64,000 nt of DNA from Giardia intestinalis (GCA_000002435.2 CM018793.1); one strand, 5' to 3'; counted from the stretch's first letter, positions 1 to 25,041 are shown. Program-made: numbers and translations. The notes: a model not told the origin generated them from the letters alone.

Positions 1-3000
1 GCCAGGGGGGCCTTCTCCCCAGCTCCAGGGGTATGCTCCTGTGCGCGGGGGCGCGCGGGTCACGGCCAGGGGGGCCAGGCGCTGCAGGCTGTGTGTTAGT
101 GGATCCGCGGAGAGGGCGGCCTGCGGTGTTAGGGCATAGCGGCATGCAGCATACAGGCCCGAGGGAGGCGTGCCATGTGGGGGGAGTGGTAGGGGGGCAT
201 CCTGGAGGATCGATGGCGAAGGTGCCGATCCTCCTCCGTGGCGGCGCAGGAGTCCTGGATGAGACGTGATGGCGTGGGTGCTTGGCCTTTGCTCGAGCGC
301 ATGGTGTGGGTGGACCGATTCCCCGCATCCTCCAGGCCCTGCGGGGGCGGTCTTCAGGCCCAAATTCTGGATTTTGGAAAAAATAAAATCCACCATGAGC
401 GTCGCCCCGGCGCAACCAGCAGGCCCTGGGCCGCGGAAACAAAGAGACAAATAGCCCGTGGACCAAGAAGAGTGCAGGCCTGTTTGGGGGGTAGAAGACG
501 ACGCGTCGGGCCAGAAACCCAGGGATCCAGGATTCCAGTCAAAGGCAGGCCTACAGACCGGCCCACTGCACCGCGCACATACGCGAGGCACCATAATGCT
601 GTTGCACTAAAAAGGGAAGCGCGAGCCCAGAGAACCGGCGAGGAAACCAGCTGGGGTGAGGGTGGGGAGCCAAATCTGGCCCATCGACACACGGGTGAGC
701 GTGGCCGCCCAAGGGACAGCGTGGACAGGTGTGCAGGCCCCATAAAGGATGCACGATGGGATCGGCCGGGGCCACCGATTCGGGGGACAAGGAGACCGTC
801 CGGACGGTCCCCGGAGTCCGGAGAAGGAGGTGCGGACCGTGCGCCATAGCTAGCCCATCCACACGTGTCGTGCTATTCCAGAATGGTGGCTCACCGGAGG
901 CGTCTGGCCAAGATGGCGGGGGCAGCGGGGCGGTGTCCCATACGCCCAGAGCCGACAGAAGGTCACGCCTGAGAGAGCAGACTGACGGCTTAGGAGGTGG
1001 TGTGGGGAGGCACGGGTGATGGAGGAGGCCCCCTAAGGGCGGGTCCAGGCTGATGACGCCAGCTCAGGACAGACCGGCAGAGCGCCGTGGAGCCATATTC
1101 TTCTGTGCGTGCCAGTCCCATCTGTGACAAGCAACCCATGTGGTGCCAGCGCTGGTGGGAGGCATGTGGCCCAGGTATGGAGCGAAACCTGGGGCCCGGC
1201 CGGACTGTCAACAGCCGTCACCGCGACTCAGCGGAGACCGAGCAGGAGAGGTAGAGAGGAGCAGGGGAGAATGGCCAGGCAAACACAGGCGCATGAGGGA
1301 TGGCCCATGGAGGGCAAGCACCTGGAGGCCAGGCCAGAGTGACCAGGTTCCCTGTACCGGGGCGCCCAGAGTGGGTACATGAGGGGGGCAGTGGGGAAGC
1401 GATGCACCCGAGGGCTCAGTAGCACATAGCACCCGGCCATCCTCTCCAGGGGCACCGGGGCGCTGCAGCAGAGGATGGCCCGAGCCAGGGCTGTGCCGCC
1501 CCGGACCGGAGGCGGCCACTGGCGGGCAGTTCCATGGGGGGATCAGCACGGCGCGGTGCGATGGTACGAATGACACACGGGGCTAGCCTCTTCCCCCAGC
1601 ACCAGCTCGCCAGACTCAGCACCCAAGGACCGCCGCTGCCCGGGAGGACAGACAGACGAACACCGGGCTGCGGCGTGGGCAGATGACGAGTCCCATCGAG
1701 GAAGTGCCCAAACGTAGGCAGGGCGGGTGTCTGGCCATCCAGGGGGGCGTCCGGCCTGGCCCGGCCTGGTCGAGTGTGTATGGCATCGCGGCTAGGCATC
1801 TATCGCACCGGTCTGGACGTGATGCACACCCGAATGATAGGGCAAGAGGCCTCGGGTGCGAGCGAGGAGTACCAGGGGAGACAGCTCGGCACGCAGGCCC
1901 AGGGGTCCGTTCGCGCTGTGGGGCAGCCGACAGCGGGCAGGGTGCCCAAGCATGACCACTAGCGCCCCGTGTCGATGCGTTTGAAGGGGTAGAAGCCATC
2001 AGGGGCATGCGGCTTGGGAGGACCGACGCGCTTGAAGAAGGACGGCAGGGCCTTGTGCACCGGCTCGGGTGCTCCTGCATCGTCGGGGCTGTCGTCATCC
2101 AGTGGAGGCGGGGAGGGGGCCCTTGAGCACATGAAGGGGTCTGGGCGTTCGTTTGCATCCGCTGTGCGGGGTGATCGGTGCCCCAGGTGATCGAGGAGGA
2201 GACCTCAGCAGGACCCCAGGGAGGAGGGACTGCCGCATCAGGATGCTGGCTGAGATCGGCCATGATCTCTACGGAGGGCGACGTGCCAGGGCTCCACATG
2301 GCAGGGGTGAGGGGAGTAGGAGGAGTAGCCCGAGCCTCGTTGGGAGCCGGTTCCGGCAGGGATACTGCAGGGGCGGGGCGGTGCACCGGCCTCTCCACTC
2401 GCAGCCCAGCGTACAGGAGGGCCGACAGCCTGTAGTGCCAGAGGATGACCTGCGCCGCCTCCTGCATGAAGCGCGCAAGGTCCACGCCGGCGAACGCGAG
2501 TCCGGCCGCAGACAGGTGGTGCAGGACGCCGTCAGCACCGACCACGACGGGGAGGATGTGGGCCGCCCGCCCCTGGAGCACGAGGGGGCGATACTTGGCG
2601 GCCTTCAGGGCATAGGACCGCTCCAGCCTCCACGGGACAGTGACCACCAAGTCCCCGAAGCCCCCACCGATGACAAGGTCAGGCTGGAGGTGATCCACTG
2701 GGATCGTGGGATTGCGCACAACAGACCCAGCGCGACCGCGGGAGCACGCGAGCAGGGCGTCCAGAATCTTGTCGTGCCGCGCCACGTGAATCCCGTTAAT
2801 GGCCTTGCACACCAGATGGTGCCTGGGAAGGAAGGGCTGCTTGCAGTGGCAGCACGTGCCCATCGGCCGGCCCCGCTGGTACCTCCCCGCCAAGCAGTCC
2901 CCTATGAACAGGACCTGCGTGTTGTCCAGGGGTGCGCAGCCCAGCAATGCGAGCGGCAGGAAGGATCGGAGCGCGGCCGTGTCCTGCAGGCGCTTCTTCC

Positions 3001-5289
3001 TCAGCTCGCGGAAGACGCCCGCCTTCATGTCCTGGCGCTGCCTGTGCATCTCGTCGTAGTAGTGATGGGGCAGCACCAGTCCGAGGCCGTACTTCGCGCG
3101 GGGCGTCAGAGCAAGGGTCTTCGCAAGGGGTTCGGGGATCTCCAGAAGGGTCGCGACCTCCTCCACTATCTGCGCATCGACGTCGGCATAGGGGGACGGG
3201 CCCGGGTAGTCGTCAACAAGGGGTCCATAGTTAACTGCAGGGACGACGCAGGCAGACAGGAGCCTGAGGCGGTCGTGGAGTGAGAGACCCGAAGCACGGA
3301 GGACGGCGAGATGCTCGTGGAGCCGGCGGGCCGATGTCTGCGCGAGGTTGAAGGAGGAGTGCTTGAGCACGCGGGTGCCCATGAAGGAGATCGCCCCGGC
3401 CTGGGTCGAGGAGCACTTCGAGAGCTCGACCGTGAGCCCTATGCGGGAGAGGGCAGACTGCGCGTCACTCTTCACGGTATCTATGGGAATCGCCTCCTCT
3501 GACGCAATGACGAGGTCGTCGGCGTATGCAACGACCTTGTACTGGCCGAGGTACGTCTCCACCGGCCAGACAAGGCTCTGGCAGAACATCGCCATGGACA
3601 GCGGGTCCCCCTGTGGCACGCCCGCTGGGACCGCGGGGAGGTCCGAGGAGTGCCGAGCCGCGAGGAACGACTCAATGTACGCGACGGTCGGCTGGACCAC
3701 CCCTGCCCGGCGGAGCGCAAAGAGGATGACGGAATGCGGGACGCTGTTGAAGGCATTCCGCACATCCACCGTGAGCAGGTGGTGTGTCCTCTTCAGCTCC
3801 TCGGCCGCGCGGATCGCCTTCATCTGGGCGAGGTGCTCAAAGGCCAGCTGCCACGCCGGGAGCTTGCGGAGCGCGGGAGTCCGACGCAGGAGCAAGCGGT
3901 GGAAGGCGACCAGAAGCGTCTCCTGCACTGCGATAGGGCGCCATCGGCCGCCAGACTTGGGCAGAAGCTTCAGCCTGAACTCGCACAGGGGCTGGAGCTG
4001 GGCCCAGTTCCTGCTGGAGAAGAGGGTCGTCAGGACAGAGGTGAAGAGCTCCGCAGCCCCGGCGGCCCCACAAAGGTGCAGGAGGTGAGGCTTCCCCAGC
4101 CCAGAGGGTCCGGCCGCGACAGGCCTCATCGCCTGCAGCTCCTTCAGCAGCGCCTTGGCCGTTATCTTGGGCGACGGGCCGAGCACGTGATGGACGGGGG
4201 GCAGAGAGACAGGCATGGGGCGCGGGTGGAGCTCATGGACAATCGCTTCCCGCTCCTTGCCCTGGGGCTCGGGGACCCTGGCGGCAGAGGACGTCTCGCT
4301 CAACAGCGCCTGCCATGCCCGGCCGAGCAGCCCCTTCCGGAGAAGCGACTGCGCCGGGGGGAGCCGTCCAGAGCCCTCCATGCGGCGGCACGTCGAGAGG
4401 AAGCGCGCTAGGGCCTCTACAGGAGGAAGGCGCCCCGCCATCTCTGTGAATACGTCAGTGAGGAGGCGAAGCAGCTCAGGGGACGGGCTGCCACTAGGCA
4501 CCCCGATGCGCTCGGGGACTGTGGCGTCGAGCGGGAGGTAGTGGCCGAGCCTGGCGATATGGGCCTTCAGCCCCCTCTCCGTTTTGTATCGGGCCCGGCA
4601 CATGCTGCATGCATACGGGAACACAGGGTCCGGCGTTGGCGAGGGAGAGGGCTCGGCGGCTGCAGGTGGAGGGGCAGACCCCGACAGCGGAGAAGGGCTG
4701 CGCGACGGAGAAGGTGAACCGGGAGGCGGATGGTGCATCCCGATGTGGACATCGATCGCCGCAGAGTCAGGCAGCACCTCTCCGCAGCGCTCGCAGACAG
4801 TCGTACGGCCCCCAGGAGCAGGCAGGTCTGCGCCCCGGGCCTCCTGCTCGTCCGTGATGGACGGGGAGTTGTCGTGGCCCAGGTCGTATGGGAGGCCGTC
4901 GTCGGGAATCGGGAGGGGCTCCTGGCCACAGGGCAGAAGGTCGTTCGACAGGCAGGGAGGAGAGGCGTCCCGGGCCACCGAGGCCCCGGAGCCCTGTAAG
5001 CCATGGACAGGAGAAGACTCATTGGGAGAGTTGTCCGTGGCGGAACGGCTGTTGCCAGGCCCAGGCTGGGGGGATGGGGGCCCGTGGGAGCCGCAGAGGG
5101 GCTCGCAAGAGGAAGGCCGGGCCATGGCGGTCGTCGAGGCATCGTTGCCGTCACCCAGCGTCATAGGATCGGGAGTGCCCCTAGGTAGGGGCCTGTGGGA
5201 GTCGGTTGGAGCGTGGTTGGGAGGCTCTGGGCCTGAGGAAGCCCCGATCTCCGTGGTTCCCGAAGGCGCGGAAAGGGCGGAACGCATGG
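1..5289 (-). mobile_element. R2-like (RLE-type) non-LTR retrotransposon copy E0; its 3' end and poly(A) lie left of the window
   Basis: Same ORF and 3' region as the other copies. The ATG complement is at 5285-5287, 2 nt from the poly(T) of E1. The 3' region at 590-780 carries several small deletions relative to E1-E3. Confidence 0.85.
1616..5287 (-). CDS. R2-type RT/endonuclease ORF of copy E0; a 1-bp deletion near the 3' end changes the last ~68 aa and extends the frame
   Basis: Identical to the E1 protein up to ...ITWGTDHPAQ. Sequence gcatccgctgtgc (about 2160) lacks one g relative to E1 gcatccggctgtgc (7640). All catalytic domains are intact. The track ORF 1616..5740 additionally reads through the poly(A) by chance. 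Confidence 0.6.
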   Translation of the reverse strand: MRSALSAPSGTTEIGASSGPEPPNHAPTDSHRPLPRGTPDPMTLGDGNDASTTAMARPSSCEPLCGSHGPPSPQPGPGNSRSATDNSPNESSPVHGLQGSGASVARDASPPCLSNDLLPCGQEPLPIPDDGLPYDLGHDNSPSITDEQEARGADLPAPGGRTTVCERCGEVLPDSAAIDVHIGMHHPPPGSPSPSRSPSPLSGSAPPPAAAEPSPSPTPDPVFPYACSMCRARYKTERGLKAHIARLGHYLPLDATVPERIGVPSGSPSPELLRLLTDVFTEMAGRLPPVEALARFLSTCRRMEGSGRLPPAQSLLRKGLLGRAWQALLSETSSAARVPEPQGKEREAIVHELHPRPMPVSLPPVHHVLGPSPKITAKALLKELQAMRPVAAGPSGLGKPHLLHLCGAAGAAELFTSVLTTLFSSRNWAQLQPLCEFRLKLLPKSGGRWRPIAVQETLLVAFHRLLLRRTPALRKLPAWQLAFEHLAQMKAIRAAEELKRTHHLLTVDVRNAFNSVPHSVILFALRRAGVVQPTVAYIESFLAARHSSDLPAVPAGVPQGDPLSMAMFCQSLVWPVETYLGQYKVVAYADDLVIASEEAIPIDTVKSDAQSALSRIGLTVELSKCSSTQAGAISFMGTRVLKHSSFNLAQTSARRLHEHLAVLRASGLSLHDRLRLLSACVVPAVNYGPLVDDYPGPSPYADVDAQIVEEVATLLEIPEPLAKTLALTPRAKYGLGLVLPHHYYDEMHRQRQDMKAGVFRELRKKRLQDTAALRSFLPLALLGCAPLDNTQVLFIGDCLAGRYQRGRPMGTCCHCKQPFLPRHHLVCKAINGIHVARHDKILDALLACSRGRAGSVVRNPTIPVDHLQPDLVIGGGFGDLVVTVPWRLERSYALKAAKYRPLVLQGRAAHILPVVVGADGVLHHLSAAGLAFAGVDLARFMQEAAQVILWHYRLSALLYAGLRVERPVHRPAPAVSLPEPAPNEARATPPTPLTPAMWSPGTSPSVEIMADLSQHPDAAVPPPWGPAEVSSSITWGTDHPAQRMQTNAQTPSCAQGPPPRLHWMTTAPTMQEHPSRCTRPCRPSSSASVLPSRMPLMASTPSNASTRGASGHAWAPCPLSAAPQRERTPGPACRAVSPGTPRSHPRPLALSFGCASRPDRCDRCLAAMPYTLDQAGPGRTPPWMARHPPCLRLGTSSMGLVICPRRSPVFVCLSSRAAAVLGC

Positions 5290-5302
5290 TTTTTTTTTTT
5301 TT
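5290..5302 (-). repeat. Poly(A) tail (13 nt) of copy E1, directly abutting the ATG of E0
   Basis: Plus strand reads catgg ttttttttttttt cagagg. Confidence 0.9.
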
Positions 5303-7431
5303 CAGAGGCGGTTTACTACGTAATATGCGCGCAAGGCGGTAAGGACATTGGAGGGGAGGCAGCCTCACGACGGAGGGGAAGGGCCCGCCCGGGGCGCCCA
5401 GCCCCCGTGCCCGCGTGGTCTCGCGGCGGGGGCGCGGCCAGGGGGGCCTTCTCCCCAGCTCCAGGGGTATGCTCCTGTGCGCGGGGGCGCGCGGGTCACG
5501 GCCAGGGGGGCCAGGCGCTGCAGGCTGTGTGTTAGTGGATCCGCGGAGAGGGCGGCCTGCGGTGTTAGGGCATAGCGGCATGCAGACATACAGGCCCGAG
5601 GGAGGCGTGCCATGTGAGGGGGAGTGGTAGGGGGGCATCCTGGAGGATCGATGGCGAAGGTGCCGATCCTCCTCCGTGGCGGCGCAGGAGTCCTGGATGA
5701 GACGTGATGGCGTGGGTGCTTGGCCTTTGCTCGAGCGCATGGTGTGGGTGGACCGATTCCCCGCATCCTCCAGGCCCTGCGGGGGCGGTCTTCAGGCCCA
5801 AATTCTGGATTTTGGAAAAAATAAAATCCACCATGAGCGTCGCCCCGGCGCAACCAGCAGGCCCTGGGCCGCGGAAACAAAGAGACAAATAGCCCGTGGA
5901 CCAAGAAGAGTGCAGGCCTGTTTGGGGGGTAGAAGACGACGCGTCGGGCCAGAAACCCAGGGATCCAGGATTCCAGTCAAAGGCAGGCCTACAGACCGGC
6001 CCACTGCACCGCGCACATACGCGAGGCACCATAATGCTGTTGCACTAAAAAGGGAAGCGCGAGCCCAGAGAACCGGCGAGGAAACAGCTTGGGGGTGGAG
6101 GGGTTTGGGGAGCCCAAATTCTGGCCCATCGACACACGGGGTGAGCTGTGGCCGGCCCAAGGGGACAGCGTGGACAGGTGTGTGCAGTGCCCCATATAAG
6201 GATGCACGATGGGGATCGGCCGGGGCCACCGATTCGGGGGACAAGGGAGACGCGTCCGGACTGTCCCCGGGAGTCCGTGAGAAGGGAGGGTGCGGACCGT
6301 GCGCCATAGCTAGCCCATCCACACGTGTCGTGCTATTCCAGAATGGTGGCTCACCGGAGGCGTCTGGCCAAGATGGCGGGGGCAGCGGGGCGGTGGTCCC
6401 ATACGGCCCAGGAGGCCGACAGAAGGTCACGCCTGAGAGAGCAGACTGACGGCTTAGGAGGTGGTGTGGGGAGGCACGGGTGATGGAGGAGGCCCCCTAA
6501 GGGCGGGTCCAGGCTGATGACGCCAGCTCAGGACAGACCGGCAGAGCGCCGTGGAGCCATATTCTTCTGTGCGTGCCAGTCCCATCTGTGACAAGCAACC
6601 CATGTGGTGCCAGCGCTGGTGGGAGGCATGTGGCCCAGGTATGGAGCGAAACCTGGGGGCCCGGCCGGGACTGTCAACAGCCGTCACCGCGACTCAGCGG
6701 AGACCGAGCAGGAGAGGTAGAGAGGAGCAGGGGAGAATGGGCCAGGCAAACACAGGCGCATGAGGGATGGCCCATTGGAGGGCAAGCACCTGGAGGCCAG
6801 GGCCAGAGTGACCAGGTTCCCTGTACCGGGGCGCCCAGAGTGGGTACATGAGGGGGGGCAGTGGGGAAGCGATGCACCCGAGGGCTCAGTAGCACATAGC
6901 ACCCGGCCATCCTCTCCAGGGGGCACCGGGGCGCTGCAGCAGAGGATGGCCCGAGCCAGGGCTGTGCCGCCCCGGACCGGAGGCGGCCACTGGCGGGCAG
7001 TTCCATGGGGGGATCAGCACGGCGCGGTGCGATGGTACGAATGACACACGGGGCTAGCCTCTTCCCCCAGCACCAGCTCGCCAGACTCAGCACCCAAGGA
7101 CCGCCGCTGCCCGGGAGGACAGACAGACGAACACCGGGCTGCGGCGTGGGCAGATGACGAGTCCCATCGAGGAAGTGCCCAAACGTAGGCAGGGCGGGTG
7201 TCTGGCCATCCAGGGGGGCGTCCGGCCTGGCCCGGCCTGGTCGAGTGTGTATGGCATCGCGGCTAGGCATCTATCGCACCGTGTCTGGACGTGATGCACA
7301 CCCGAATGATAGGGGCAAGAGGCCTCGGGTGCGAGCGAGGAGTACCAGGGGAGACAGCTCGGCACGCAGGCCCAGGGGTCCGTTCGCGCTGTGGGGCAGC
7401 CGACAGCGGGCAGGGTGCCCAAGCATGACCA
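5303..7431 (-). other. Unusually long (2129 nt) non-coding 3' region of E1. The equivalent regions in other copies are 10778-12906, 16255-18378, 21631-23734 and 1-1958 (partial)
   Basis: It lies between the ORF stop (7432-7434) and the poly(A). Only low-complexity Pro/Gly/Arg-rich ORFs occur on either strand. The region is near-identical across copies. Confidence 0.7.
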
Positions 7432-10400
7432 CTAGCGCCCCGTGTCGATGCGTTTGAAGGGGTAGAAGCCATCAGGGGCATGCGGCTTGGGAGGACCGAC
7501 GCGCTTGAAGAAGGACGGCAGGGCCTTGTGCACCGGCTCGGGTGCTCCTGCATCGTCGGGGCTGTCGTCATCCAGTGGAGGCGGGGAGGGGGCCCTTGAG
7601 CACATGAAGGGGTCTGGGCGTTCGTTTGCATCCGGCTGTGCGGGGTGATCGGTGCCCCAGGTGATCGAGGAGGAGACCTCAGCAGGACCCCAGGGAGGAG
7701 GGACTGCCGCATCAGGATGCTGGCTGAGATCGGCCATGATCTCTACGGAGGGCGACGTGCCAGGGCTCCACATGGCAGGGGTGAGGGGAGTAGGAGGAGT
7801 AGCCCGAGCCTCGTTGGGAGCCGGTTCCGGCAGGGATACTGCAGGGGCGGGGCGGTGCACCGGCCTCTCCACTCGCAGCCCAGCGTACAGGAGGGCCGAC
7901 AGCCTGTAGTGCCAGAGGATGACCTGCGCCGCCTCCTGCATGAAGCGCGCAAGGTCCACGCCGGCGAACGCGAGTCCGGCCGCAGACAGGTGGTGCAGGA
8001 CGCCGTCAGCACCGACCACGACGGGGAGGATGTGGGCCGCCCGCCCCTGGAGCACGAGGGGGCGATACTTGGCGGCCTTCAGGGCATAGGACCGCTCCAG
8101 CCTCCACGGGACAGTGACCACCAAGTCCCCGAAGCCCCCACCGATGACAAGGTCAGGCTGGAGGTGATCCACTGGGATCGTGGGATTGCGCACAACAGAC
8201 CCAGCGCGACCGCGGGAGCACGCGAGCAGGGCGTCCAGAATCTTGTCGTGCCGCGCCACGTGAATCCCGTTAATGGCCTTGCACACCAGATGGTGCCTGG
8301 GAAGGAAGGGCTGCTTGCAGTGGCAGCACGTGCCCATCGGCCGGCCCCGCTGGTACCTCCCCGCCAAGCAGTCCCCTATGAACAGGACCTGCGTGTTGTC
8401 CAGGGGTGCGCAGCCCAGCAATGCGAGCGGCAGGAAGGATCGGAGCGCGGCCGTGTCCTGCAGGCGCTTCTTCCTCAGCTCGCGGAAGACGCCCGCCTTC
8501 ATGTCCTGGCGCTGCCTGTGCATCTCGTCGTAGTAGTGATGGGGCAGCACCAGTCCGAGGCCGTACTTCGCGCGGGGCGTCAGAGCAAGGGTCTTCGCAA
8601 GGGGTTCGGGGATCTCCAGAAGGGTCGCGACCTCCTCCACTATCTGCGCATCGACGTCGGCATAGGGGGACGGGCCCGGGTAGTCGTCAACAAGGGGTCC
8701 ATAGTTAACTGCAGGGACGACGCAGGCAGACAGGAGCCTGAGGCGGTCGTGGAGTGAGAGACCCGAAGCACGGAGGACGGCGAGATGCTCGTGGAGCCGG
8801 CGGGCCGATGTCTGCGCGAGGTTGAAGGAGGAGTGCTTGAGCACGCGGGTGCCCATGAAGGAGATCGCCCCGGCCTGGGTCGAGGAGCACTTCGAGAGCT
8901 CGACCGTGAGCCCTATGCGGGAGAGGGCAGACTGCGCGTCACTCTTCACGGTATCTATGGGAATCGCCTCCTCTGACGCAATGACGAGGTCGTCGGCGTA
9001 TGCAACGACCTTGTACTGGCCGAGGTACGTCTCCACCGGCCAGACAAGGCTCTGGCAGAACATCGCCATGGACAGCGGGTCCCCCTGTGGCACGCCCGCT
9101 GGGACCGCGGGGAGGTCCGAGGAGTGCCGAGCCGCGAGGAACGACTCAATGTACGCGACGGTCGGCTGGACCACCCCTGCCCGGCGGAGCGCAAAGAGGA
9201 TGACGGAATGCGGGACGCTGTTGAAGGCATTCCGCACATCCACCGTGAGCAGGTGGTGTGTCCTCTTCAGCTCCTCGGCCGCGCGGATCGCCTTCATCTG
9301 GGCGAGGTGCTCAAAGGCCAGCTGCCACGCCGGGAGCTTGCGGAGCGCGGGAGTCCGACGCAGGAGCAAGCGGTGGAAGGCGACCAGAAGCGTCTCCTGC
9401 ACTGCGATAGGGCGCCATCGGCCGCCAGACTTGGGCAGAAGCTTCAGCCTGAACTCGCACAGGGGCTGGAGCTGGGCCCAGTTCCTGCTGGAGAAGAGGG
9501 TCGTCAGGACAGAGGTGAAGAGCTCCGCAGCCCCGGCGGCCCCACAAAGGTGCAGGAGGTGAGGCTTCCCCAGCCCAGAGGGTCCGGCCGCGACAGGCCT
9601 CATCGCCTGCAGCTCCTTCAGCAGCGCCTTGGCCGTTATCTTGGGCGACGGGCCGAGCACGTGATGGACGGGGGGCAGAGAGACAGGCATGGGGCGCGGG
9701 TGGAGCTCATGGACAATCGCTTCCCGCTCCTTGCCCTGGGGCTCGGGGACCCTGGCGGCAGAGGACGTCTCGCTCAACAGCGCCTGCCATGCCCGGCCGA
9801 GCAGCCCCTTCCGGAGAAGCGACTGCGCCGGGGGGAGCCGTCCAGAGCCCTCCATGCGGCGGCACGTCGAGAGGAAGCGCGCTAGGGCCTCTACAGGAGG
9901 AAGGCGCCCCGCCATCTCTGTGAATACGTCAGTGAGGAGGCGAAGCAGCTCAGGGGACGGGCTGCCACTAGGCACCCCGATGCGCTCGGGGACTGTGGCG
10001 TCGAGCGGGAGGTAGTGGCCGAGCCTGGCGATATGGGCCTTCAGCCCCCTCTCCGTTTTGTATCGGGCCCGGCACATGCTGCATGCATACGGGAACACAG
10101 GGTCCGGCGTTGGCGAGGGAGAGGGCTCGGCGGCTGCAGGTGGAGGGGCAGACCCCGACAGCGGAGAAGGGCTGCGCGACGGAGAAGGTGAACCGGGAGG
10201 CGGATGGTGCATCCCGATGTGGACATCGATCGCCGCAGAGTCAGGCAGCACCTCTCCGCAGCGCTCGCAGACAGTCGTACGGCCCCCAGGAGCAGGCAGG
10301 TCTGCGCCCCGGGCCTCCTGCTCGTCCGTGATGGACGGGGAGTTGTCGTGGCCCAGGTCGTATGGGAGGCCGTCGTCGGGAATCGGGAGGGGCTCCTGGC

Positions 10401-10761
10401 CACAGGGCAGAAGGTCGTTCGACAGGCAGGGAGGAGAGGCGTCCCGGGCCACCGAGGCCCCGGAGCCCTGTAAGCCATGGACAGGAGAAGACTCATTGGG
10501 AGAGTTGTCCGTGGCGGAACGGCTGTTGCCAGGCCCAGGCTGGGGGGATGGGGGCCCGTGGGAGCCGCAGAGGGGCTCGCAAGAGGAAGGCCGGGCCATG
10601 GCGGTCGTCGAGGCATCGTTGCCGTCACCCAGCGTCATAGGATCGGGAGTGCCCCTAGGTAGGGGCCTGTGGGAGTCGGTTGGAGCGTGGTTGGGAGGCT
10701 CTGGGCCTGAGGAAGCCCCGATCTCCGTGGTTCCCGAAGGCGCGGAAAGGGCGGAACGCAT
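7432..10761 (-). CDS. Intact 1109-aa R2-type ORF: 2x C2H2 zinc finger, reverse transcriptase, CCHC motif, REL-endonuclease (PD-(D/E)xK)
   Basis: Uninterrupted ORF. ZF1 is CERCGEV..HIGMHH and ZF2 is CSMC...HIARLGH. RT motifs are LLTVDVRNAFNSV, GVPQGDPLS and VVAYADDLVIAS (YADD at nt 8989-9000). CCHCKQPFLPRHHLVCK is followed by RNPTIPVDHLQPDLVIGGGFGDLVVTV...K, the hallmark of RLE-bearing non-LTR elements such as R2. Confidence 0.9.
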   Translation of the reverse strand: MRSALSAPSGTTEIGASSGPEPPNHAPTDSHRPLPRGTPDPMTLGDGNDASTTAMARPSSCEPLCGSHGPPSPQPGPGNSRSATDNSPNESSPVHGLQGSGASVARDASPPCLSNDLLPCGQEPLPIPDDGLPYDLGHDNSPSITDEQEARGADLPAPGGRTTVCERCGEVLPDSAAIDVHIGMHHPPPGSPSPSRSPSPLSGSAPPPAAAEPSPSPTPDPVFPYACSMCRARYKTERGLKAHIARLGHYLPLDATVPERIGVPSGSPSPELLRLLTDVFTEMAGRLPPVEALARFLSTCRRMEGSGRLPPAQSLLRKGLLGRAWQALLSETSSAARVPEPQGKEREAIVHELHPRPMPVSLPPVHHVLGPSPKITAKALLKELQAMRPVAAGPSGLGKPHLLHLCGAAGAAELFTSVLTTLFSSRNWAQLQPLCEFRLKLLPKSGGRWRPIAVQETLLVAFHRLLLRRTPALRKLPAWQLAFEHLAQMKAIRAAEELKRTHHLLTVDVRNAFNSVPHSVILFALRRAGVVQPTVAYIESFLAARHSSDLPAVPAGVPQGDPLSMAMFCQSLVWPVETYLGQYKVVAYADDLVIASEEAIPIDTVKSDAQSALSRIGLTVELSKCSSTQAGAISFMGTRVLKHSSFNLAQTSARRLHEHLAVLRASGLSLHDRLRLLSACVVPAVNYGPLVDDYPGPSPYADVDAQIVEEVATLLEIPEPLAKTLALTPRAKYGLGLVLPHHYYDEMHRQRQDMKAGVFRELRKKRLQDTAALRSFLPLALLGCAPLDNTQVLFIGDCLAGRYQRGRPMGTCCHCKQPFLPRHHLVCKAINGIHVARHDKILDALLACSRGRAGSVVRNPTIPVDHLQPDLVIGGGFGDLVVTVPWRLERSYALKAAKYRPLVLQGRAAHILPVVVGADGVLHHLSAAGLAFAGVDLARFMQEAAQVILWHYRLSALLYAGLRVERPVHRPAPAVSLPEPAPNEARATPPTPLTPAMWSPGTSPSVEIMADLSQHPDAAVPPPWGPAEVSSSITWGTDHPAQPDANERPDPFMCSRAPSPPPLDDDSPDDAGAPEPVHKALPSFFKRVGPPKPHAPDGFYPFKRIDTGR
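8056..8328 (-). other. CCHC motif plus restriction-enzyme-like endonuclease domain of the E1 ORF (aa 812-902)
   Basis: C812-X2-C815...H823/824...C827, followed by the PD869-870...D879...K895 catalytic-type spacing. Confidence 0.75.
8662..9579 (-). other. Reverse-transcriptase domain of the E1 ORF (about aa 395-700)
   Basis: Non-LTR RT motifs including DVRNAF, PQGDPLS and YADD. Confidence 0.85.
10015..10269 (-). other. N-terminal DNA-binding region of the E1 ORF: two C2H2 zinc fingers (aa 165-186 and 227-249)
   Basis: CX2C-X12-HX3H and CX2C-X12-HX5H spacing. R2-family proteins carry one to three N-terminal zinc fingers that bind the rDNA target. Confidence 0.7.
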
Positions 10762-10763
10762 GG

Positions 10764-10777
10764 TTTTTTTTTTTTTT
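10764..10777 (-). repeat. Poly(A) tail (14 nt) of copy E2
   Basis: Homopolymer at a unit boundary. Confidence 0.9.
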
Positions 10778-12906: not shown

Positions 12907-15900
12907 CTAGCGCCCCGTGTCGATGCGTTTGAAGGGGTAGAAGCCATCAGGGGCATGCGGCTTGGGAGGACCGACGCGCTTGAAGAAGGACGGCAGGGCC
13001 TTGTGCACCGGCTCGGGTGCTCCTGCATCGTCGGGGCTGTCGTCATCCAGTGGAGGCGGGGAGGGGGCCCTTGAGCACATGAAGGGGTCTGGGCGTTCGT
13101 TTGCATCCGGCTGTGCGGGGTGATCGGTGCCCCAGGTGATCGAGGAGGAGACCTCAGCAGGACCCCAGGGAGGAGGGACTGCCGCATCAGGATGCTGGCT
13201 GAGATCGGCCATGATCTCTACGGAGGGCGACGTGCCAGGGCTCCACATGGCAGGGGTGAGGGGAGTAGGAGGAGTAGCCCGAGCCTCGTTGGGAGCCGGT
13301 TCCGGCAGGGATACTGCAGGGGCGGGGCGGTGCACCGGCCTCTCCACTCGCAGCCCAGCGTACAGGAGGGCCGACAGCCTGTAGTGCCAGAGGATGACCT
13401 GCGCCGCCTCCTGCATGAAGCGCGCAAGGTCCACGCCGGCGAACGCGAGTCCGGCCGCAGACAGGTGGTGCAGGACGCCGTCAGCACCGACCACGACGGG
13501 GAGGATGTGGGCCGCCCGCCCCTGGAGCACGAGGGGGCGATACTTGGCGGCCTTCAGGGCATAGGACCGCTCCAGCCTCCACGGGACAGTGACCACCAAG
13601 TCCCCGAAGCCCCCACCGATGACAAGGTCAGGCTGGAGGTGATCCACTGGGATCGTGGGATTGCGCACAACAGACCCAGCGCGACCGCGGGAGCACGCGA
13701 GCAGGGCGTCCAGAATCTTGTCGTGCCGCGCCACGTGAATCCCGTTAATGGCCTTGCACACCAGATGGTGCCTGGGAAGGAAGGGCTGCTTGCAGTGGCA
13801 GCACGTGCCCATCGGCCGGCCCCGCTGGTACCTCCCCGCCAAGCAGTCCCCTATGAACAGGACCTGCGTGTTGTCCAGGGGTGCGCAGCCCAGCAATGCG
13901 AGCGGCAGGAAGGATCGGAGCGCGGCCGTGTCCTGCAGGCGCTTCTTCCTCAGCTCGCGGAAGACGCCCGCCTTCATGTCCTGGCGCTGCCTGTGCATCT
14001 CGTCGTAGTAGTGATGGGGCAGCACCAGTCCGAGGCCGTACTTCGCGCGGGGCGTCAGAGCAAGGGTCTTCGCAAGGGGTTCGGGGATCTCCAGAAGGGT
14101 CGCGACCTCCTCCACTATCTGCGCATCGACGTCGGCATAGGGGGACGGGCCCGGGTAGTCGTCAACAAGGGGTCCATAGTTAACTGCAGGGACGACGCAG
14201 GCAGACAGGAGCCTGAGGCGGTCGTGGAGTGAGAGACCCGAAGCACGGAGGACGGCGAGATGCTCGTGGAGCCGGCGGGCCGATGTCTGCGCGAGGTTGA
14301 AGGAGGAGTGCTTGAGCACGCGGGTGCCCATGAAGGAGATCGCCCCGGCCTGGGTCGAGGAGCACTTCGAGAGCTCGACCGTGAGCCCTATGCGGGAGAG
14401 GGCAGACTGCGCGTCACTCTTCACGGTATCTATGGGAATCGCCTCCTCTGACGCAATGACGAGGTCGTCGGCGTATGCAACGACCTTGTACTGGCCGAGG
14501 TACGTCTCCACCGGCCAGACAAGGCTCTGGCAGAACATCGCCATGGACAGCGGGTCCCCCTGTGGCACGCCCGCTGGGACCGCGGGGAGGTCCGAGGAGT
14601 GCCGAGCCGCGAGGAACGACTCAATGTACGCGACGGTCGGCTGGACCACCCCTGCCCGGCGGAGCGCAAAGAGGATGACGGAATGCGGGACGCTGTTGAA
14701 GGCATTCCGCACATCCACCGTGAGCAGGTGGTGTGTCCTCTTCAGCTCCTCGGCCGCGCGGATCGCCTTCATCTGGGCGAGGTGCTCAAAGGCCAGCTGC
14801 CACGCCGGGAGCTTGCGGAGCGCGGGAGTCCGACGCAGGAGCAAGCGGTGGAAGGCGACCAGAAGCGTCTCCTGCACTGCGATAGGGCGCCATCGGCCGC
14901 CAGACTTGGGCAGAAGCTTCAGCCTGAACTCGCACAGGGGCTGGAGCTGGGCCCAGTTCCTGCTGGAGAAGAGGGTCGTCAGGACAGAGGTGAAGAGCTC
15001 CGCAGCCCCGGCGGCCCCACAAAGGTGCAGGAGGTGAGGCTTCCCCAGCCCAGAGGGTCCGGCCGCGACAGGCCTCATCGCCTGCAGCTCCTTCAGCAGC
15101 GCCTTGGCCGTTATCTTGGGCGACGGGCCGAGCACGTGATGGACGGGGGGCAGAGAGACAGGCATGGGGCGCGGGTGGAGCTCATGGACAATCGCTTCCC
15201 GCTCCTTGCCCTGGGGCTCGGGGACCCTGGCGGCAGAGGACGTCTCGCTCAACAGCGCCTGCCATGCCCGGCCGAGCAGCCCCTTCCGGAGAAGCGACTG
15301 CGCCGGGGGGAGCCGTCCAGAGCCCTCCATGCGGCGGCACGTCGAGAGGAAGCGCGCTAGGGCCTCTACAGGAGGAAGGCGCCCCGCCATCTCTGTGAAT
15401 ACGTCAGTGAGGAGGCGAAGCAGCTCAGGGGACGGGCTGCCACTAGGCACCCCGATGCGCTCGGGGACTGTGGCGTCGAGCGGGAGGTAGTGGCCGAGCC
15501 TGGCGATATGGGCCTTCAGCCCCCTCTCCGTTTTGTATCGGGCCCGGCACATGCTGCATGCATACGGGAACACAGGGTCCGGCGTTGGCGAGGGAGAGGG
15601 CTCGGCGGCTGCAGGTGGAGGGGCAGACCCCGACAGCGGAGAAGGGCTGCGCGACGGAGAAGGTGAACCGGGAGGCGGATGGTGCATCCCGATGTGGACA
15701 TCGATCGCCGCAGAGTCAGGCAGCACCTCTCCGCAGCGCTCGCAGACAGTCGTACGGCCCCCAGGAGCAGGCAGGTCTGCGCCCCGGGCCTCCTGCTCGT
15801 CCGTGATGGACGGGGAGTTGTCGTGGCCCAGGTCGTATGGGAGGCCGTCGTCGGGAATCGGGAGGGGCTCCTGGCCACAGGGCAGAAGGTCGTTCGACAG

Positions 15901-16235
15901 GCAGGGAGGAGAGGCGTCCCGGGCCACCGAGGCCCCGGAGCCCTGTAAGCCATGGACAGGAGAAGACTCATTGGGAGAGTTGTCCGTGGCGGAACGGCTG
16001 TTGCCAGGCCCAGGCTGGGGGATGGGGGCCCGTGGGAGCCGCAGAGGGGCTCGCAAGAGGAAGGCCGGGCCATGGCGGTCGTCGAGGCATCGTTGCCGTC
16101 ACCCAGCGTCATAGGATCGGGAGTGCCCCTAGGTAGGGGCCTGTGGGAGTCGGTTGGAGCGTGGTTGGGAGGCTCTGGGCCTGAGGAAGCCCCGATCTCC
16201 GTGGTTCCCGAAGGCGCGGAAAGGGCGGAACGCAT
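12907..16235 (-). CDS. R2-type RT/endonuclease ORF of copy E2 with one 1-bp frameshift in a G-run near the N-terminus
   Basis: Near 16017, ctgggggatggggg has 5 g where E1 and E0 have 6. The track ORF 12907..16056 (1049 aa) restarts from an in-frame Met just upstream of the shift and still contains every domain. This could be a homopolymer sequencing error. Confidence 0.6.
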
Positions 16236-18378: not shown

Positions 18379-21300
18379 CTAGCGCCCCGTGTCGATGCGT
18401 TTGAAGGGGTAGAAGCCATCAGGGGCATGCGGCTTGGGAGGACCGACGCGCTTGAAGAAGGACGGCAGGGCCTTGTGCACCGGCTCGGGTGCTCCTGCAT
18501 CGTCGGGGCTGTCGTCATCCAGTGGAGGCGGGGAGGGGGCCCTTGAGCACATGAAGGGGTCTGGGCGTTCGTTTGCATCCGGCTGTGCGGGGTGATCGGT
18601 GCCCCAGGTGATCGAGGAGGAGACCTCAGCAGGACCCCAGGGAGGAGGGACTGCCGCATCAGGATCTGGCTGAGATCGGCCATGATCTCTACGGAGGGCG
18701 ACGTGCCAGGGCTCCACATGGCAGGGGTGAGGGGAGTAGGAGGAGTAGCCCGAGCCTCGTTGGGAGCCGGTTCCGGCAGGGATACTGCAGGGGCGGGGCG
18801 GTGCACCGGCCTCTCCACTCGCAGCCCAGCGTACAGGAGGGCCGACAGCCTGTAGTGCCAGAGGATGACCTGCGCCGCCTCCTGCATGAAGCGCGCAAGG
18901 TCCACGCCGGCGAACGCGAGTCCGGCCGCAGACAGGTGGTGCAGGACGCCGTCAGCACCGACCACGACGGGGAGGATGTGGGCCGCCCGCCCCTGGAGCA
19001 CGAGGGGGCGATACTTGGCGGCCTTCAGGGCATAGGACCGCTCCAGCCTCCACGGGACAGTGACCACCAAGTCCCCGAAGCCCCCACCGATGACAAGGTC
19101 AGGCTGGAGGTGATCCACTGGGATCGTGGGATGCGCACAACAGACCCAGCGCGACCGCGGGAGCACGCGAGCAGGGCGTCCAGAATCTTGTCGTGCCGCG
19201 CCACGTGAATCCCGTTAATGGCCTTGCACACCAGATGGTGCCTGGGAAGGAAGGGCTGCTTGCAGTGGCAGCACGTGCCCATCGGCCGGCCCCGCTGGTA
19301 CCTCCCCGCCAAGCAGTCCCCTATGAACAGGACCTGCGTGTTGTCCAGGGGTGCGCGCCCAGCAATGCGAGCGGCAGGAAGGACGGAGCGCGGCCGGTGT
19401 CCTGCAGGCGCTCTTCCTCAGCTCGCGGAAGACGCCCGCCTTCATGTCCTGGCGCTGCCTGTGCATCTCGTCGAGTAGTGAGGGGCAGCACCAGTCCGAG
19501 GCCGACTTCGCGCGGGGCGTCAGAGCAAGGGTCTTCGCAAGGGGTTCGGGGATCTCCAGAAGGGTCGCGACCTCCTCCACTATCTGCGCATCGACGTCGG
19601 CATAGGGGGACGGGCCCGGGTAGTCGTCACAAGGGGTCCATAGTTAACTGCAGGGACGACGCAGGCAGACAGGAGCCTGAGGCGTCGTGGAGGAGAGAAC
19701 CCGAACACGGAGGACGGCGAGATGCTCGTGGAGCGGCGGGCCGATGTCTGCGCGAGGTTGAAGGAGGAGTGCTTGAGCACGCGGGTGCCCATGAAGGAGA
19801 TCGCCCCGGCCTGGGTCGAGGAGCACTTCGAGAGCTCGACCGTGAGCCCTATGCGGAGAGGGCAGACTGCGCGTCACTCTTCACGGTACTATGGGAATCG
19901 CCTCCTCTGACGCAATGACGAGGTCGTCGGCGTATGCAACGACCTTGTACTGGCCGAGGTACGTCTCCACCGGCCAGACCAAGGCTCTGGCAGAACATCG
20001 CCATGGACAGCGGGTCCCCCTGCACGCCCGCTGGACGCGGGGAGGTCCGAGAGTGCGAGCCGCGAGAACGACTCAAGTACGCGACGGTCGGCTGGACACC
20101 CCTGCCCGGCGGAGCGCAAAGAGGAGACGGAAGCGGGACGCTGTGAAGGCATTCCGCACATCACCGGAGCAGTGGTGGTCCTCTTCAGCTCCTCGGCCGC
20201 GCGGATCGCCTTCATCTGGCGAGGTGCTCAAGCCAGCTGCCACGCCGGGAGCTTGCGGAGCGCGGGAGTCCGACGCAGGAGCAAGCGGTGGAAGGCGACC
20301 AGAAGCGTCTCCTGCACTGCGATAGGGCGCCATCGCCGCCAGACTTGGGCAGAAGCTTCAGCCTGAACTCGCACGGGGCTGGAGCGGGCCCAGTTCCTGC
20401 TGGAGGAAGAGGGTCGTCAGACAGAGGGAAGAGCTCCGCAGCCCCGGCGCCCCACAAAGGTGCAGGAGGGAGGCTTCCCCAGCCCAGAGGGTCCGCCGCG
20501 ACAGGCCCATCGGCCTGCAGCTCCTCAGCAGCGCCTGGCCGTTATCTTGGGCGACGGGCCGAGCACGTGATGGACGGGGGCGAGAGACAGGCATGGGCGC
20601 GGGTGGAGCTCATGGACAATCGCTTCCCGCTCCTTGCCCTGGGGCTCGGGACCCTGGCGGCAGAGGACGTCTCGCTCAACAGCGCCTGCCATGCCCGGCC
20701 GAGCAGCCCCTTCCGGAGAAGCGACTGCGCCGGGGGGAGCCGTCCAGAGCCCTCCATGCGGCGGCACGTCGAGAGGAAGCGCGCTAGGGCCTCTACAGGA
20801 GGAGGCGCCCCGCCATCTCTGTGAATACGTCAGTGAGGAGGCGAAGCAGCTCAGGGGACGGCTGCCACAGGCACCCGATGCGCTCGGGGACTGTGGCGTC
20901 GAGCGGGAGGTAGTGGCCGAGCCTGGCGATATGGGCCTTCAGCCCCCTCTCCGTTTGTATCGGGCCCGGCACATGCTGCATGCATACGGGAACACAGGGT
21001 CCGGCGTTGGCGAGGGAGAGGGCTCGGCGGCTGCAGGTGGAGGGCAGACCCCGACAGCGGAGAAGGGCTGCGCGACGGAGAAGGTGAACCGGGAGGCGGA
21101 TGTGCATCCCGATGTGGACATCGATCGCCGCAGAGTCAGGCAGCACCTCTCCGCAGCGCTCGCAGACAGTCGTACGGCCCCAGGAGCAGGCAGGTCTGCG
21201 CCCCCCTCCGCTCGTGTCGGGCCCAGGTCGTATGGGAGGCCGTCGTCGGCGGGAGGGCTCCTGGCCACAGGCCGACAGGCAGGGAGGAGAGGCGTCCCGG

Positions 21301-25004: not shown

Positions 25005-25041
<37 letters not shown>

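What the first reader, a model, noticed from the sequence alone, without database searches (positions are those of the whole stretch)
7432..10761. One copy (E1) keeps a completely intact 1109-aa ORF with all catalytic motifs, making it a candidate active element
In E1 the zinc fingers, RT (YADD), CCHC and PD-(D/E)xK endonuclease are uninterrupted. E0 differs only by a 1-bp deletion after the endonuclease domain. E2 differs by one missing G in a G6 run; its remaining 1049-aa ORF restarts at a Met immediately upstream and retains all domains. Two C2H2 fingers, rather than one or three, place it among the two-finger R2 lineages. The N-terminal ~160 aa are Ser/Pro-rich, low-complexity, and may partly be untranslated leader.
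Basis: partly seen in the sequence, partly recalled or inferred. Interest (0 to 1): 0.5.

Follow-up and report, generated by a model that had tools for sequence, protein, structure and literature searches.

The report
Known Giardia retrotransposon GilM, intact copy
The intact 1109-codon gene is real, but it is a copy of GilM (also called Genie 1), a subtelomeric retrotransposon of the parasite Giardia intestinalis that was described in 2001-2002 and is already annotated, so the finding is correct and ordinary.

Summary
Window 7432-10761 on the minus strand is an uninterrupted 1109-codon ORF. It has two C2H2 fingers, a reverse transcriptase with YADD, a CCHC motif and a restriction-like endonuclease (RLE) motif set.

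It is already known. The protein is 100% identical to annotated Giardia proteins. Residues 42-1109 equal GenBank AAL47180.1. Both published Genie-1 primers match exactly. The 5474-5475 bp repeat equals the published GilM unit.

The real DNA (1-27161; the rest is N) is a head-to-tail GilM array joined to a truncated rDNA unit. It probably comes from the chr5 end of the WB reference assembly. Each copy is an ORF, a 2.1 kb 3'UTR, an AGTAAAC signal, an A13-17 tract, then CC and the next ATG.

- It is the GENIE lineage, not a two-finger R2 lineage, and the 28S R2 site is intact.
- The E2 1049-codon frame opens with TTG. Its first ATG lies inside zinc finger 1.
- The E0 frameshift removes a conserved C-terminal tail.
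- Copies differ almost only by 1-bp deletions, which looks like long-read error, so E1 is probably not uniquely intact. At least four identical proteins are annotated.

Comparison with the assemblage E ortholog gives dN/dS 0.13 in the core, which supports a functional element. Novelty: none. Interest: low.

The parts
7432..10761 (-). E1 ORF: 1109 codons plus stop, intact GilM/Genie 1 reverse transcriptase/endonuclease
   Evidence: 100% identical to P0001 = KAE8301202.1 and others. Residues 42-1109 equal AAL47180.1.
10207..10269 (-). C2H2 zinc finger 1 (aa 165-185)
   Evidence: C165, C168, H181, H185 are invariant in 12 family proteins.
10015..10083 (-). C2H2 zinc finger 2 (aa 227-249)
   Evidence: Pfam zf-C2H2_4 at 225-246. 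C227, C230, H243, H249 invariant.
8845..9435 (-). Reverse transcriptase domain (aa 443-639); YADD at 8989-9000
   Evidence: Pfam RVT_1 E 3.8e-21. Matches the R2 protein RT at E 6e-9. Best Foldseek hits are R2 proteins.
8281..8328 (-). CCHC motif (aa 812-827)
   Evidence: Invariant C812, C815, H823/824, C827. Aligns to the R2 CCHC motif.
8065..8157 (-). Restriction-like endonuclease motifs PD...D...K..KY (aa 869-899)
   Evidence: Invariant P869, D870, D879, K895, K898, Y899. A family profile hits the R2 RLE region at E 5e-4.
7453..7608 (-). Conserved C-terminal tail motifs (aa 1052-1103), lost in E0 if its frameshift is real
   Evidence: Invariant F1052, S1055, PSP1058-1060, EP1075-1076, K1079, F1102, K1103.
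5303..7431 (-). E1 3'UTR, about 2.1 kb, non-coding
   Evidence: Only its last ~220 nt are conserved with other family members. tblastx hits fall in all frames.
5358..5456 (-). Conserved structured 3'UTR core of E1. The identical core belonging to E2's 3'UTR lies at 10833-10931.
   Evidence: Alignment A2 of 10 elements, 80% mean identity. Five helices, 5 pairs with compensatory changes, 98% of cells paired against 38-60% when partners are slid.
5311..5317 (-). AGTAAAC, a match to the Giardia polyadenylation signal AGTRAAY. It is the only one on the sense strand of the element.
5290..5302 (-). Genomic poly(A) tract A13 ending E1, followed by CC and the ATG of E0 at 5287. Equivalent tracts: 10764-10777 (A14), 16238-16254 (A17), 21616-21630 (A15).
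   Evidence: These are the only A/T runs of 7 or more in the 27 kb.
1616..5287 (-). E0 copy. Identical to E1 for 1042 codons, then shifted by a 1-bp deletion at 2162 (1223-aa product).
   Evidence: The product equals the annotated KAE8304591.1 / XP_037902120.1.
12907..16235 (-). E2 copy. A 1-bp deletion in the C6 run at 16022 leaves 239 codons from its own ATG. The downstream 1049-codon frame starts at TTG 16056.
18379..21613 (-). E3 ORF region, riddled with 1-bp deletions, probably consensus errors
   Evidence: Over the 5.4-kb alignment unit 18379-23734 (the E3 ORF plus the upstream 3'UTR): 85 deletions, 5 insertions, 1 substitution against E1.
23735..24838 (-). E4, a 5'-truncated copy retaining ORF codons 740-1109, joined directly to LSU rDNA. 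Its 3'UTR follows at 21631-23734.
24839..26697 (-). 3'-truncated LSU rRNA gene. Homology runs to about Rfam model position 2463 of 3401. The R2 target site is intact at about 25030.
26941..27161 (-). 3' end of the SSU rRNA gene, cut off by the N gap at 27162-64000

Best explanation
The ORF is the single gene of a full-length copy of GilM (= Genie 1), the subtelomeric non-LTR retrotransposon of Giardia intestinalis assemblage A. It lies in a head-to-tail array next to a truncated rDNA unit. The window probably comes from the chr5 end of the WB reference assembly.

Shown here:
- The element consists of a 3330-nt ORF, a ~2.1-kb 3'UTR, an AGTAAAC signal and an A13-17 tract.
- The next copy starts 2 nt after that tract with its ATG.
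- The protein carries two C2H2 fingers, an RT, a CCHC motif and an R2-type restriction-like endonuclease.
- The protein core has evolved under purifying selection.

Inferred from the anatomy and from what is established for R2:
- Transcription starts in or next to the upstream A-tract, since Giardia initiators are short and AT-rich and its 5'UTRs are tiny.
- The protein binds the conserved structured ~100-nt domain near the 3' end of its own RNA.
- The endonuclease nicks the antisense strand exactly at the 5' boundary of a resident copy.
- The RT copies the RNA from its poly(A) tail by target-primed reverse transcription, adding a new copy head-to-tail. Unequal exchange may homogenise the array afterwards.

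E1 is therefore a plausible active copy, but not a unique one. The frameshifts in the neighbouring copies are at least partly assembly errors.
For: Identity:
- P0001 is 100% identical over 100% of the query and is named 'putative Reverse transcriptase/endonuclease [Giardia duodenalis]'.
- At least four NCBI accessions carry the identical protein, and the exact E0 frameshift product is annotated on the 4.02-Mb contig.
- AAL47180.1 matches 1068/1068 residues.
- The Genie1 primers published in PMC1950533 match exactly in E0, E1 and E2.
- The repeat period is 5474-5475 bp, and PMC7000408 states 'One copy of GilM is 5,474 bp long'. That paper also describes about four copies next to partial 18S genes and a large gap at the chr5 end, which matches the SSU fragment and N run here.

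Domains.

Architecture:
- The boundary reads AGTAAAC, 8 nt, an A-tract, CC, ATG.
- The same layout occurs in every related element retrieved, at 47-74% locus GC and 48-63% protein identity, and in the closer P15 GilM ortholog.
- P15 arrays have periods of 5817 and 6206 bp.

3' RNA domain: only the last ~220 nt of the UTR are conserved, with compensatory base changes.

Function: dN/dS is 0.126 over codons 161-960 against the P15 ortholog. There are no substitutions among E0, E1 and E2.

Literature: head-to-tail arrays, long 3'UTRs, 5'-truncated terminal copies and unresolved targeting are already described (PMC5537684). Both strands are transcribed (PMC1950533).
Against: - Nothing here shows transposition. 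Identity between copies could come from unequal crossing-over, gene conversion or repeat collapse during assembly.
- The nick site, the transcription start and the RNA-protein contact are all inferred.
- The AlphaFold model is poor (mean pLDDT 50; endonuclease region below 50), so the endonuclease fold rests on motifs and a weak profile hit (E 5e-4).
- Burke et al. 2002 described Genie 1 as inserted site-specifically in a chromosomal repeat (as cited in PMC1950533). I could not read that paper. In this array I see no repeat separate from the element.
- The window contains no telomere repeats, so the subtelomeric position and the orientation toward the chromosome end are not shown directly.
Confidence: 0.93

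Rival explanations
1. It is an R2-clade element, as the reader proposed from the two fingers. On this reading it is a 28S rDNA-specific retrotransposon, co-transcribed with rRNA and released by a 5' ribozyme.
For: The domain order matches R2. The best sequence and fold matches in the PDB are R2 proteins. The array abuts an LSU gene in the same orientation.
Against: The R2 target sequence (cttaagg/tagccaaatgcc) is uninterrupted at about 25030. The only LSU junction lies about 187 model positions further on, at Rfam model position ~2463, and involves a 5'-truncated copy. All the other copies are flanked by other copies, not by rDNA. No HDV-like ribozyme or other Rfam hit was found at E <= 1, and there is no room for a 5'UTR. 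No Myb domain was detected. Similarity to the R2 RT is only E 6e-9, while the match to Giardia GilM is 100%. The literature places GENIE outside R2.
Confidence: 0.02
2. The array is a domesticated or passive tandem repeat, in effect a satellite. It is maintained only by unequal crossing-over or break-induced replication at the chromosome end, and the ORF is no longer used for transposition.
For: The 5.5-kb units are near-identical with no substitutions. rDNA-bearing Giardia chromosome ends rearrange frequently (PMC3091692). No target-site duplications or dispersed copies are seen.
Against: dN/dS of 0.126 in the core against the P15 ortholog shows long-term selection on the protein. Poly(A) length differs at every junction, 13/14/17/15 here and 9/15 in P15, while the flanks are identical; this fits separate reverse-transcription events better than copying of one junction, although slippage or sequencing error cannot be excluded. 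The family has diversified into many lineages that all keep intact ORFs and the same junction.
Confidence: 0.15
3. Copies are added without the endonuclease directly onto the chromosome terminus, in the manner of HeT-A/TART, so the element acts as a back-up telomere-extension system.
For: The antisense strand is the G-rich strand, as a telomeric 3' end would be. Reviews say the orientation directs reverse transcription toward the chromosome end (PMC10999387). The array in locus L002 faces unique genes with its 3' end. E4 is 5'-truncated, as expected for an eroded terminal copy (PMC5537684).
Against: The four copy-to-copy junctions in the window, and those seen at related loci, are precise (A-tract, 2-4 nt, ATG). 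They show no erosion and no interspersed TAGGG repeats. An invariant endonuclease motif set is retained under selection. As scaffolded, the array's 3' ends point to the start of the window and rDNA lies on the 5' side, so its position relative to the telomere is unresolved.
Confidence: 0.15

Closest known systems
GilM (Arkhipova & Morrison 2001, PNAS 98:14497) = Genie 1 (Burke, Malik, Rich & Eickbush 2002, Mol Biol Evol 19:619) of Giardia intestinalis WB
   Same: Same element. The protein is 100% identical to AAL47180.1 over its 1068 residues and to four or more KAE83... annotations. The Genie1 primers match exactly. The unit length is 5474-5475 bp. It forms head-to-tail arrays with a long 3'UTR.
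   Different: Nothing substantive. The 2001 entry starts at Met42, whereas the open frame and current annotations start 41 codons earlier, 2 nt after the upstream poly(A) tract.
GilT and the assemblage E (P15) array families, plus metagenomic relatives (P0002-P0023)
   Same: Same domain set and invariant motifs. Same tandem organisation and same poly(A)-ATG junction. Same conserved 3'UTR core.
   Different: 48-63% protein identity among the twelve aligned proteins. Measured 3'UTR lengths run from about 0.6 kb (L005) to 2.3 kb (L001), with 0.8 kb in L006; the 6206-bp period of L003 implies about 2.7 kb. Locus GC ranges from 47 to 74%.
R2 elements (R2Bm, R2Tg; solved TPRT complexes 8gh6, 9dou, 9nl2, 9nl3)
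   Same: N-terminal C2H2 fingers, RT, CCHC and a PD...D...K endonuclease in the same order. They are the best PDB matches. A structured 3'UTR used for TPRT is the likely common mechanism (inferred).
   Different: GilM is not in the 28S R2 site. It has no 5'UTR or ribozyme and no detectable Myb domain. It ends in poly(A) preceded by a polyadenylation signal and lies in self-adjacent arrays. The RT similarity is only distant, and it belongs to a separate clade.
CRE/SLACS/CZAR elements of trypanosomatids
   Same: RLE-bearing, site-specific, ancient protist lineages. One RT analysis groups GilM and GilT with the CRE clade (PMC10088271).
   Different: Those elements insert in spliced-leader genes. 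The relationship was not tested here.
HeT-A/TART/TAHRE of Drosophila and SART/TRAS of Bombyx
   Same: Telomere-associated, uniformly oriented arrays, long 3'UTRs and strand compositional bias.
   Different: Those elements carry an APE or no endonuclease, belong to other clades, and have variably truncated junctions or insertions in telomeric repeats. GilM junctions are precise and it encodes an RLE.

Membership tests
GilM / Genie 1 (Giardia) | Sequence identity to the published element | tested here: met
   AAL47180.1 matches 1068/1068 residues. Both Genie1 primers from PMC1950533 match exactly in three copies. P0001 is 100% identical over 100% of the query.
GilM / Genie 1 (Giardia) | Unit of about 5.47 kb in head-to-tail tandem arrays | tested here: met
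   Period 5474-5475 bp over five units. PMC7000408 gives 5,474 bp.
GilM / Genie 1 (Giardia) | Single ORF with N-terminal CCHH finger(s), RT and a C-terminal REL-endonuclease | tested here: met
GilM / Genie 1 (Giardia) | Host is Giardia intestinalis | tested here: met
   The sources name the identical protein as Giardia duodenalis/intestinalis. The adjacent rRNA genes are strongly reduced and 72-74% GC.
GilM / Genie 1 (Giardia) | Subtelomeric location, with 3' ends facing the chromosome interior | tested here: inconclusive
   The window and loci contain no TAGGG repeats. The array abuts rDNA, which is telomeric in Giardia (Adam et al. 1991, cited in PMC1635262). The L002 array faces unique genes with its 3' end. 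The scaffold orientation here is ambiguous.
RLE-bearing non-LTR retrotransposons (R2/R4/NeSL/CRE/GENIE group) | RT of non-LTR type | tested here: met
   RVT_1 at E 3.8e-21. The closest solved proteins are R2 RTs.
RLE-bearing non-LTR retrotransposons (R2/R4/NeSL/CRE/GENIE group) | CCHC motif followed by a PD-(D/E)xK-type endonuclease, C-terminal to the RT | tested here: met
   The motifs are invariant. A family profile hits the CCHC-RLE region of R2Tg at E 5e-4. The fold itself was not confidently modelled.
RLE-bearing non-LTR retrotransposons (R2/R4/NeSL/CRE/GENIE group) | Endonuclease and TPRT activity | not testable with these tools
   This needs biochemistry.
R2 clade | Insertion at the conserved R2 site of 28S rDNA | tested here: not met
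   The R2 site is intact at about 25030. The only rDNA junction is at LSU model position ~2463 and involves a 5'-truncated copy.
R2 clade | 5' HDV-like self-cleaving ribozyme and co-transcription with rRNA | tested here: not met
   No Rfam hit other than rRNA at E <= 1. The ATG lies 2 nt after the upstream poly(A) tract.
R2 clade | Myb motif after the zinc fingers | tested here: inconclusive
   No Pfam Myb hit. Residues 250-335 are conserved and predicted helical.
R2 clade | RT phylogeny nests within R2 | not tested
   No reference set was available. The literature treats GENIE as separate or near CRE.
HeT-A/TART-type terminal-addition elements | Variably 5'-truncated junctions between array members | tested here: not met
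   All four internal junctions are full-length and precise. Only the outermost copy, E4, is truncated.

The most novel reading that the evidence does not exclude
Two details may not be in the literature, but I could not read the 2001 and 2002 primary papers to check.

(1) A ~100-nt structured RNA module lies 60-160 nt upstream of the poly(A) tract. It is conserved, with compensatory base changes, in the GENIE-family elements examined, which share only about 50% protein identity and range from 47 to 74% GC. It is the likely handle by which the RT recognises its own RNA.

(2) An invariant junction (AGTAAAY, 7-9 nt, A-tract, 2-4 nt, ATG) implies that the element targets its own 5' boundary. It also implies that each copy's poly(A) tail supplies the AT-rich initiator for the next copy, so that only arrayed copies are expressed.
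Probability: 0.25. Interest if true: 0.35.

Novelty: already known. Interest (0 to 1): 0.1.

Why it matters
It matters little as a discovery. GilM/Genie 1 has been in GenBank and in the literature since 2001-2002, and this locus is annotated in the current Giardia WB reference.

The practical value is quality control:
- The frameshifted neighbours, one of which is annotated as a 1223-aa protein, and the heavily gapped E3 copy look like uncorrected long-read indels in a repeat that is hard to polish.
- The scaffold orientation of the GilM array relative to the rDNA array is uncertain. The GilM unit is 5.47 kb, and I recall the rDNA unit as about 5.6 kb, so optical maps would be unlikely to tell the two apart.

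The conserved 3'UTR module and the poly(A)-ATG junction give concrete handles for anyone who wants to test how this old RLE lineage chooses its target.

Tried and rejected
- The primary papers (PMC64710; Burke et al. 2002; PMC1151983) are not held. I therefore could not check the '771-bp repeat' that I recall from Burke et al. No tandem or separate repeat exists inside the unit (TRF found none).
- The look-up of encoding contigs found no record for P0001 or P0024, so the window's exact chromosomal coordinates could not be confirmed.
- The AlphaFold model from the 12-sequence alignment was poor (pLDDT 50). I used it only for a coarse Foldseek ranking, not for claims about the endonuclease fold.
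- A second ORF in the 3'UTR is rejected. Conservation is limited to the last ~220 nt and appears in all six frames.
- The antisense ORFs of about 370 aa (for example 7645-8757 on the plus strand) are rejected as genes. Their length follows GC content across relatives, from 804 codons at 74% GC to about 100 at 48%, and their positions are not conserved.
- A simple G-quadruplex regex (G3+, loops of 1-7 nt) found only one motif per strand. This does not reproduce the 27 PQS reported in PMC10088271, which presumably used a more permissive algorithm, and I did not pursue it.
- The sigma-70 promoter scan was not used, because it does not apply to Giardia.
- The genome-contig collection holds only bacteria and archaea, so it was not scanned.

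Full report
**What is in the window.** Only bases 1-27161 are sequence; 27162-64000 are N. The DNA is 66-71% GC. It consists of head-to-tail repeats with a period of 5474-5475 bp.

Tiling against the E1 unit gives the following copies. Each alignment unit here is an ORF together with the 3'UTR upstream of it.
- A partial copy at 24838-23735.
- A full unit at 23734-18379: 97.6% identity, 1 mismatch, 91 gap openings.
- A full unit at 18378-12907: 3 mismatches.
- The E1 reference unit at 12906-7432.
- A full unit at 7431-1959: 0 mismatches, 2 gaps.
- A partial unit at 1958-1.

Beyond the array, still on the minus strand, Rfam finds a eukaryotic LSU rRNA gene (26697-24912) and the 3' end of an SSU rRNA gene (27161-26941). 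Both are strongly reduced and 72-74% GC.

**The observation.** The ORF at 7432-10761 is on the minus strand, has 1109 codons and starts with ATG. The chance of such an open frame at this composition is about 3e-10. Pfam finds RVT_1 at residues 443-639 (E 3.8e-21) and a C2H2 finger.

In an alignment of 12 family proteins with 48-63% identity, both fingers, YADD, the CCHC motif and P869-D870/D879/K895/K898-Y899 are invariant. No Pfam model covers the endonuclease. A profile of that region hits the CCHC-RLE region of solved R2 proteins at E 5e-4, with the motifs in register. R2 proteins are also the best sequence and fold matches overall. The fold match rests on a poor model (pLDDT 50).

E0 has a 1-bp deletion at 2162, and E2 lacks one base of the G6 run at 16022.

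- From its own ATG (16235), E2 reads only 239 codons. The 1049-codon frame starts at TTG, and its first ATG is Met184, inside finger 1.
- E0 reads 1042 correct codons and then loses a C-terminal tail that contains family-invariant residues.
- Differences among copies are almost entirely single-base deletions. The E3 unit has 85 deletions, 5 insertions and 1 substitution; the partial unit at the window start has 34, 1 and 1. Most sit next to an identical base. That pattern points to long-read consensus error rather than decay. The authors of the reference genome report exactly this problem (PMC7000408).
- The C6 deletion is shared by E2 and E3 together with a junction variant. It could be real or a systematic homopolymer error, and only the reads can decide.

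**What it is.**
- The protein is 100% identical over its full length to 'putative Reverse transcriptase/endonuclease [Giardia duodenalis]'. That exact sequence carries at least four NCBI accessions on three contigs.
- The exact 1223-aa E0 frameshift product is itself annotated on a 4,018,654-bp contig, so the window comes from that assembly.
- GenBank AAL47180.1 (1068 aa) equals residues 42-1109.
- The Genie-1 primers published in PMC1950533 match exactly in E0, E1 and E2.
- PMC7000408 states that one GilM copy is 5,474 bp. It also places about four copies at the 5' end of chr5, next to partial 18S genes that flank the largest gap. This matches the array, the SSU fragment and the N run seen here.

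The element is therefore GilM (Arkhipova & Morrison 2001), also named Genie 1 (Burke et al. 2002).

**Anatomy.** On the sense strand each copy ends ...cgcatattacgtAGTAAACcgcctctg, then an A-tract, then CC and the ATG of the next copy.
- The A-tracts are 13, 14, 17 and 15 nt long. They are the only A/T runs of 7 or more in the 27 kb.
- AGTAAAC is the only match on the sense strand to AGTRAAY, which I recall as the Giardia polyadenylation signal.
- The element therefore has essentially no 5'UTR, a 3330-nt ORF and a ~2.1-kb 3'UTR.

The same junction (AGTAAAY, 7-9 nt, A7-20, 2-4 nt, ATG) is present in every related element I could retrieve. These include two assemblage E array families with periods of 5817 and 6206 bp, an assemblage AII contig, metagenomic contigs of 47-74% GC, and the P15 ortholog of GilM.

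Across families only the ORF core and the last ~220 nt of the 3'UTR are conserved at the nucleotide level. The latter reaches 80-85% identity, higher than the 67% seen across the coding region. Measured 3'UTR lengths run from about 0.6 to 2.3 kb, and the 6206-bp period of one P15 family implies about 2.7 kb.

A ~100-nt core of this region (5358-5456, and again at 10833-10931) folds into a consensus of five helices. Five pairs show compensatory changes, and 98% of cells are paired, against 38-60% when the partners are slid.

**The rDNA junction.** E4 keeps only codons 740-1109. It is joined abruptly to LSU sequence at 24839/24838. LSU homology runs continuously to about model position 2463. The R2 target site is intact about 190 nt upstream. 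This is not an R2-type insertion.

The junction fits the published picture of a 5'-eroded terminal copy (PMC5537684) that was later joined to rDNA. rDNA is telomeric and recombinogenic in Giardia.

The window has no TAGGG repeats. The G-rich strand and the L002 context suggest that the 5' ends face the telomere. As scaffolded, however, the 3' ends point toward the window start. I leave the orientation unresolved.

**Is it active?**
- Against the P15 ortholog, dN/dS is 0.126 over codons 161-960. It is 0.44 over codons 42-160, 0.36 over codons 961-1109 and 0.86 over codons 1-41. There is a single in-frame 3-codon indel, and the 3'UTR is 84.7% identical.
- The core protein is therefore under purifying selection. 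The first 41 codons show no detectable constraint, which agrees with the old Met42 annotation. Against that, Met1 follows the poly(A) tract in every family member.
- E0, E1 and E2 have no substitutions between them.
- Published work reports transcripts from both strands and small RNAs from these elements.

E1 is a reasonable candidate for an active copy, but it is one of several identical ones.

**Mechanism (inferred).** By analogy with R2, the protein would bind the conserved 3' RNA module. It would nick the antisense strand at the 5' boundary of a resident copy, leaving ...CATGG-3'OH, and would prime on the poly(A) tail. This would add a copy head-to-tail.

Two features favour endonuclease-directed self-targeting over erosive end-addition or pure unequal exchange: the junctions are precise, and the A-tract length differs at each junction. 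Neither alternative is excluded. The upstream A-tract is the only AT-rich sequence near each ATG, so it is the likely initiator.

**Classification and novelty.** The literature treats GENIE as a separate ancient RLE clade beside CRE, R2, R4 and NeSL (PMC2790886), or places GilM and GilT with CRE (PMC10088271). Finger number does not make it an R2. Everything central to the finding is already published and annotated.

Noticed in passing
window 18379-23734 and 1-1958: These two stretches differ from the reference unit by 85 and 34 deletions respectively, with only one substitution each. This looks like unpolished long-read consensus inside a collapsed repeat. ORFs called here, and possibly the annotated 1223-aa E0 protein, are unreliable.
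   Followed up: partly
window 24839/24838: A 5'-truncated GilM copy (from codon 740) is fused to an LSU rRNA gene broken at about Rfam model position 2463, in the same orientation as rRNA transcription. Read-through Pol I transcripts would be sense to GilM. It is unresolved whether this is a healed chromosome end or a recombination product.
   Followed up: partly
window 26698-26940: Only 243 nt separate the SSU 3' end from the LSU start. This stretch must hold ITS1, 5.8S and ITS2, yet Rfam reported no 5.8S hit at E <= 1. That is consistent with the extremely reduced Giardia rDNA, but I did not examine it.
   Followed up: no
window 27162-64000: A 36.8-kb run of N follows directly after a partial 18S gene. 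It matches the large rDNA gap described at the chr5 end of the WB reference (PMC7000408). The GilM unit is 5.47 kb, and I recall the rDNA unit as about 5.6 kb, so optical-map placement of the array relative to the rDNA may be ambiguous.
   Followed up: partly
window 5358-5456, 10833-10931, 16309-16407; loci L001-L011 upstream of their A-tracts: A ~100-nt GC-rich 3'UTR module is conserved in the related elements examined, with compensatory changes (for example CCGCG/CGCGG, CCGCA/TGCGG and CCACA/TGTGG). It is better conserved than the coding sequence.
   Followed up: yes
alignment A1: N-termini of P0002/P0003 (MPSAFFKRIG), P0020 and P0021 against the C-terminal tail of all members (LPPIFKRV ... 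FYPFKRI): A short (L)P(P/S)(I/F)F(K/R)(K/R)(V/I) motif recurs at the C-terminus of all family proteins and near the N-terminus of some. GilM has it only at the C-terminus. Its function is unknown.
   Followed up: no
window 7645-8757 (+), 13120-14232 (+), 2153-3283 (+): Antisense ORFs of about 370 aa overlap the C-terminal half of the RT gene in each copy. In relatives their length tracks GC content and their positions are not conserved, so they are compositional artefacts.
   Followed up: yes
window 16252-16257 and 21631-21633 against 10778-10781: The 3' ends of E3 and E4 read ...CGCCC(C)T before the A-tract, whereas those of E1 and E2 read ...CGCCTCTG. This is a junction-proximal variant. The first of these junctions also lies upstream of the C6 to C5 frameshift in E2. 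It could mark two sub-lineages within the array or systematic error.
   Followed up: no
loci L007, L008, L009 (Logan SRR17450158; ENA ERZ27251054, ERZ27251004): GENIE-family elements with only 47-50% GC but the same junction and 3' module come from metagenome or SRA assemblies. They presumably belong to other Giardia species or other diplomonads. The hosts were not identified.
   Followed up: no
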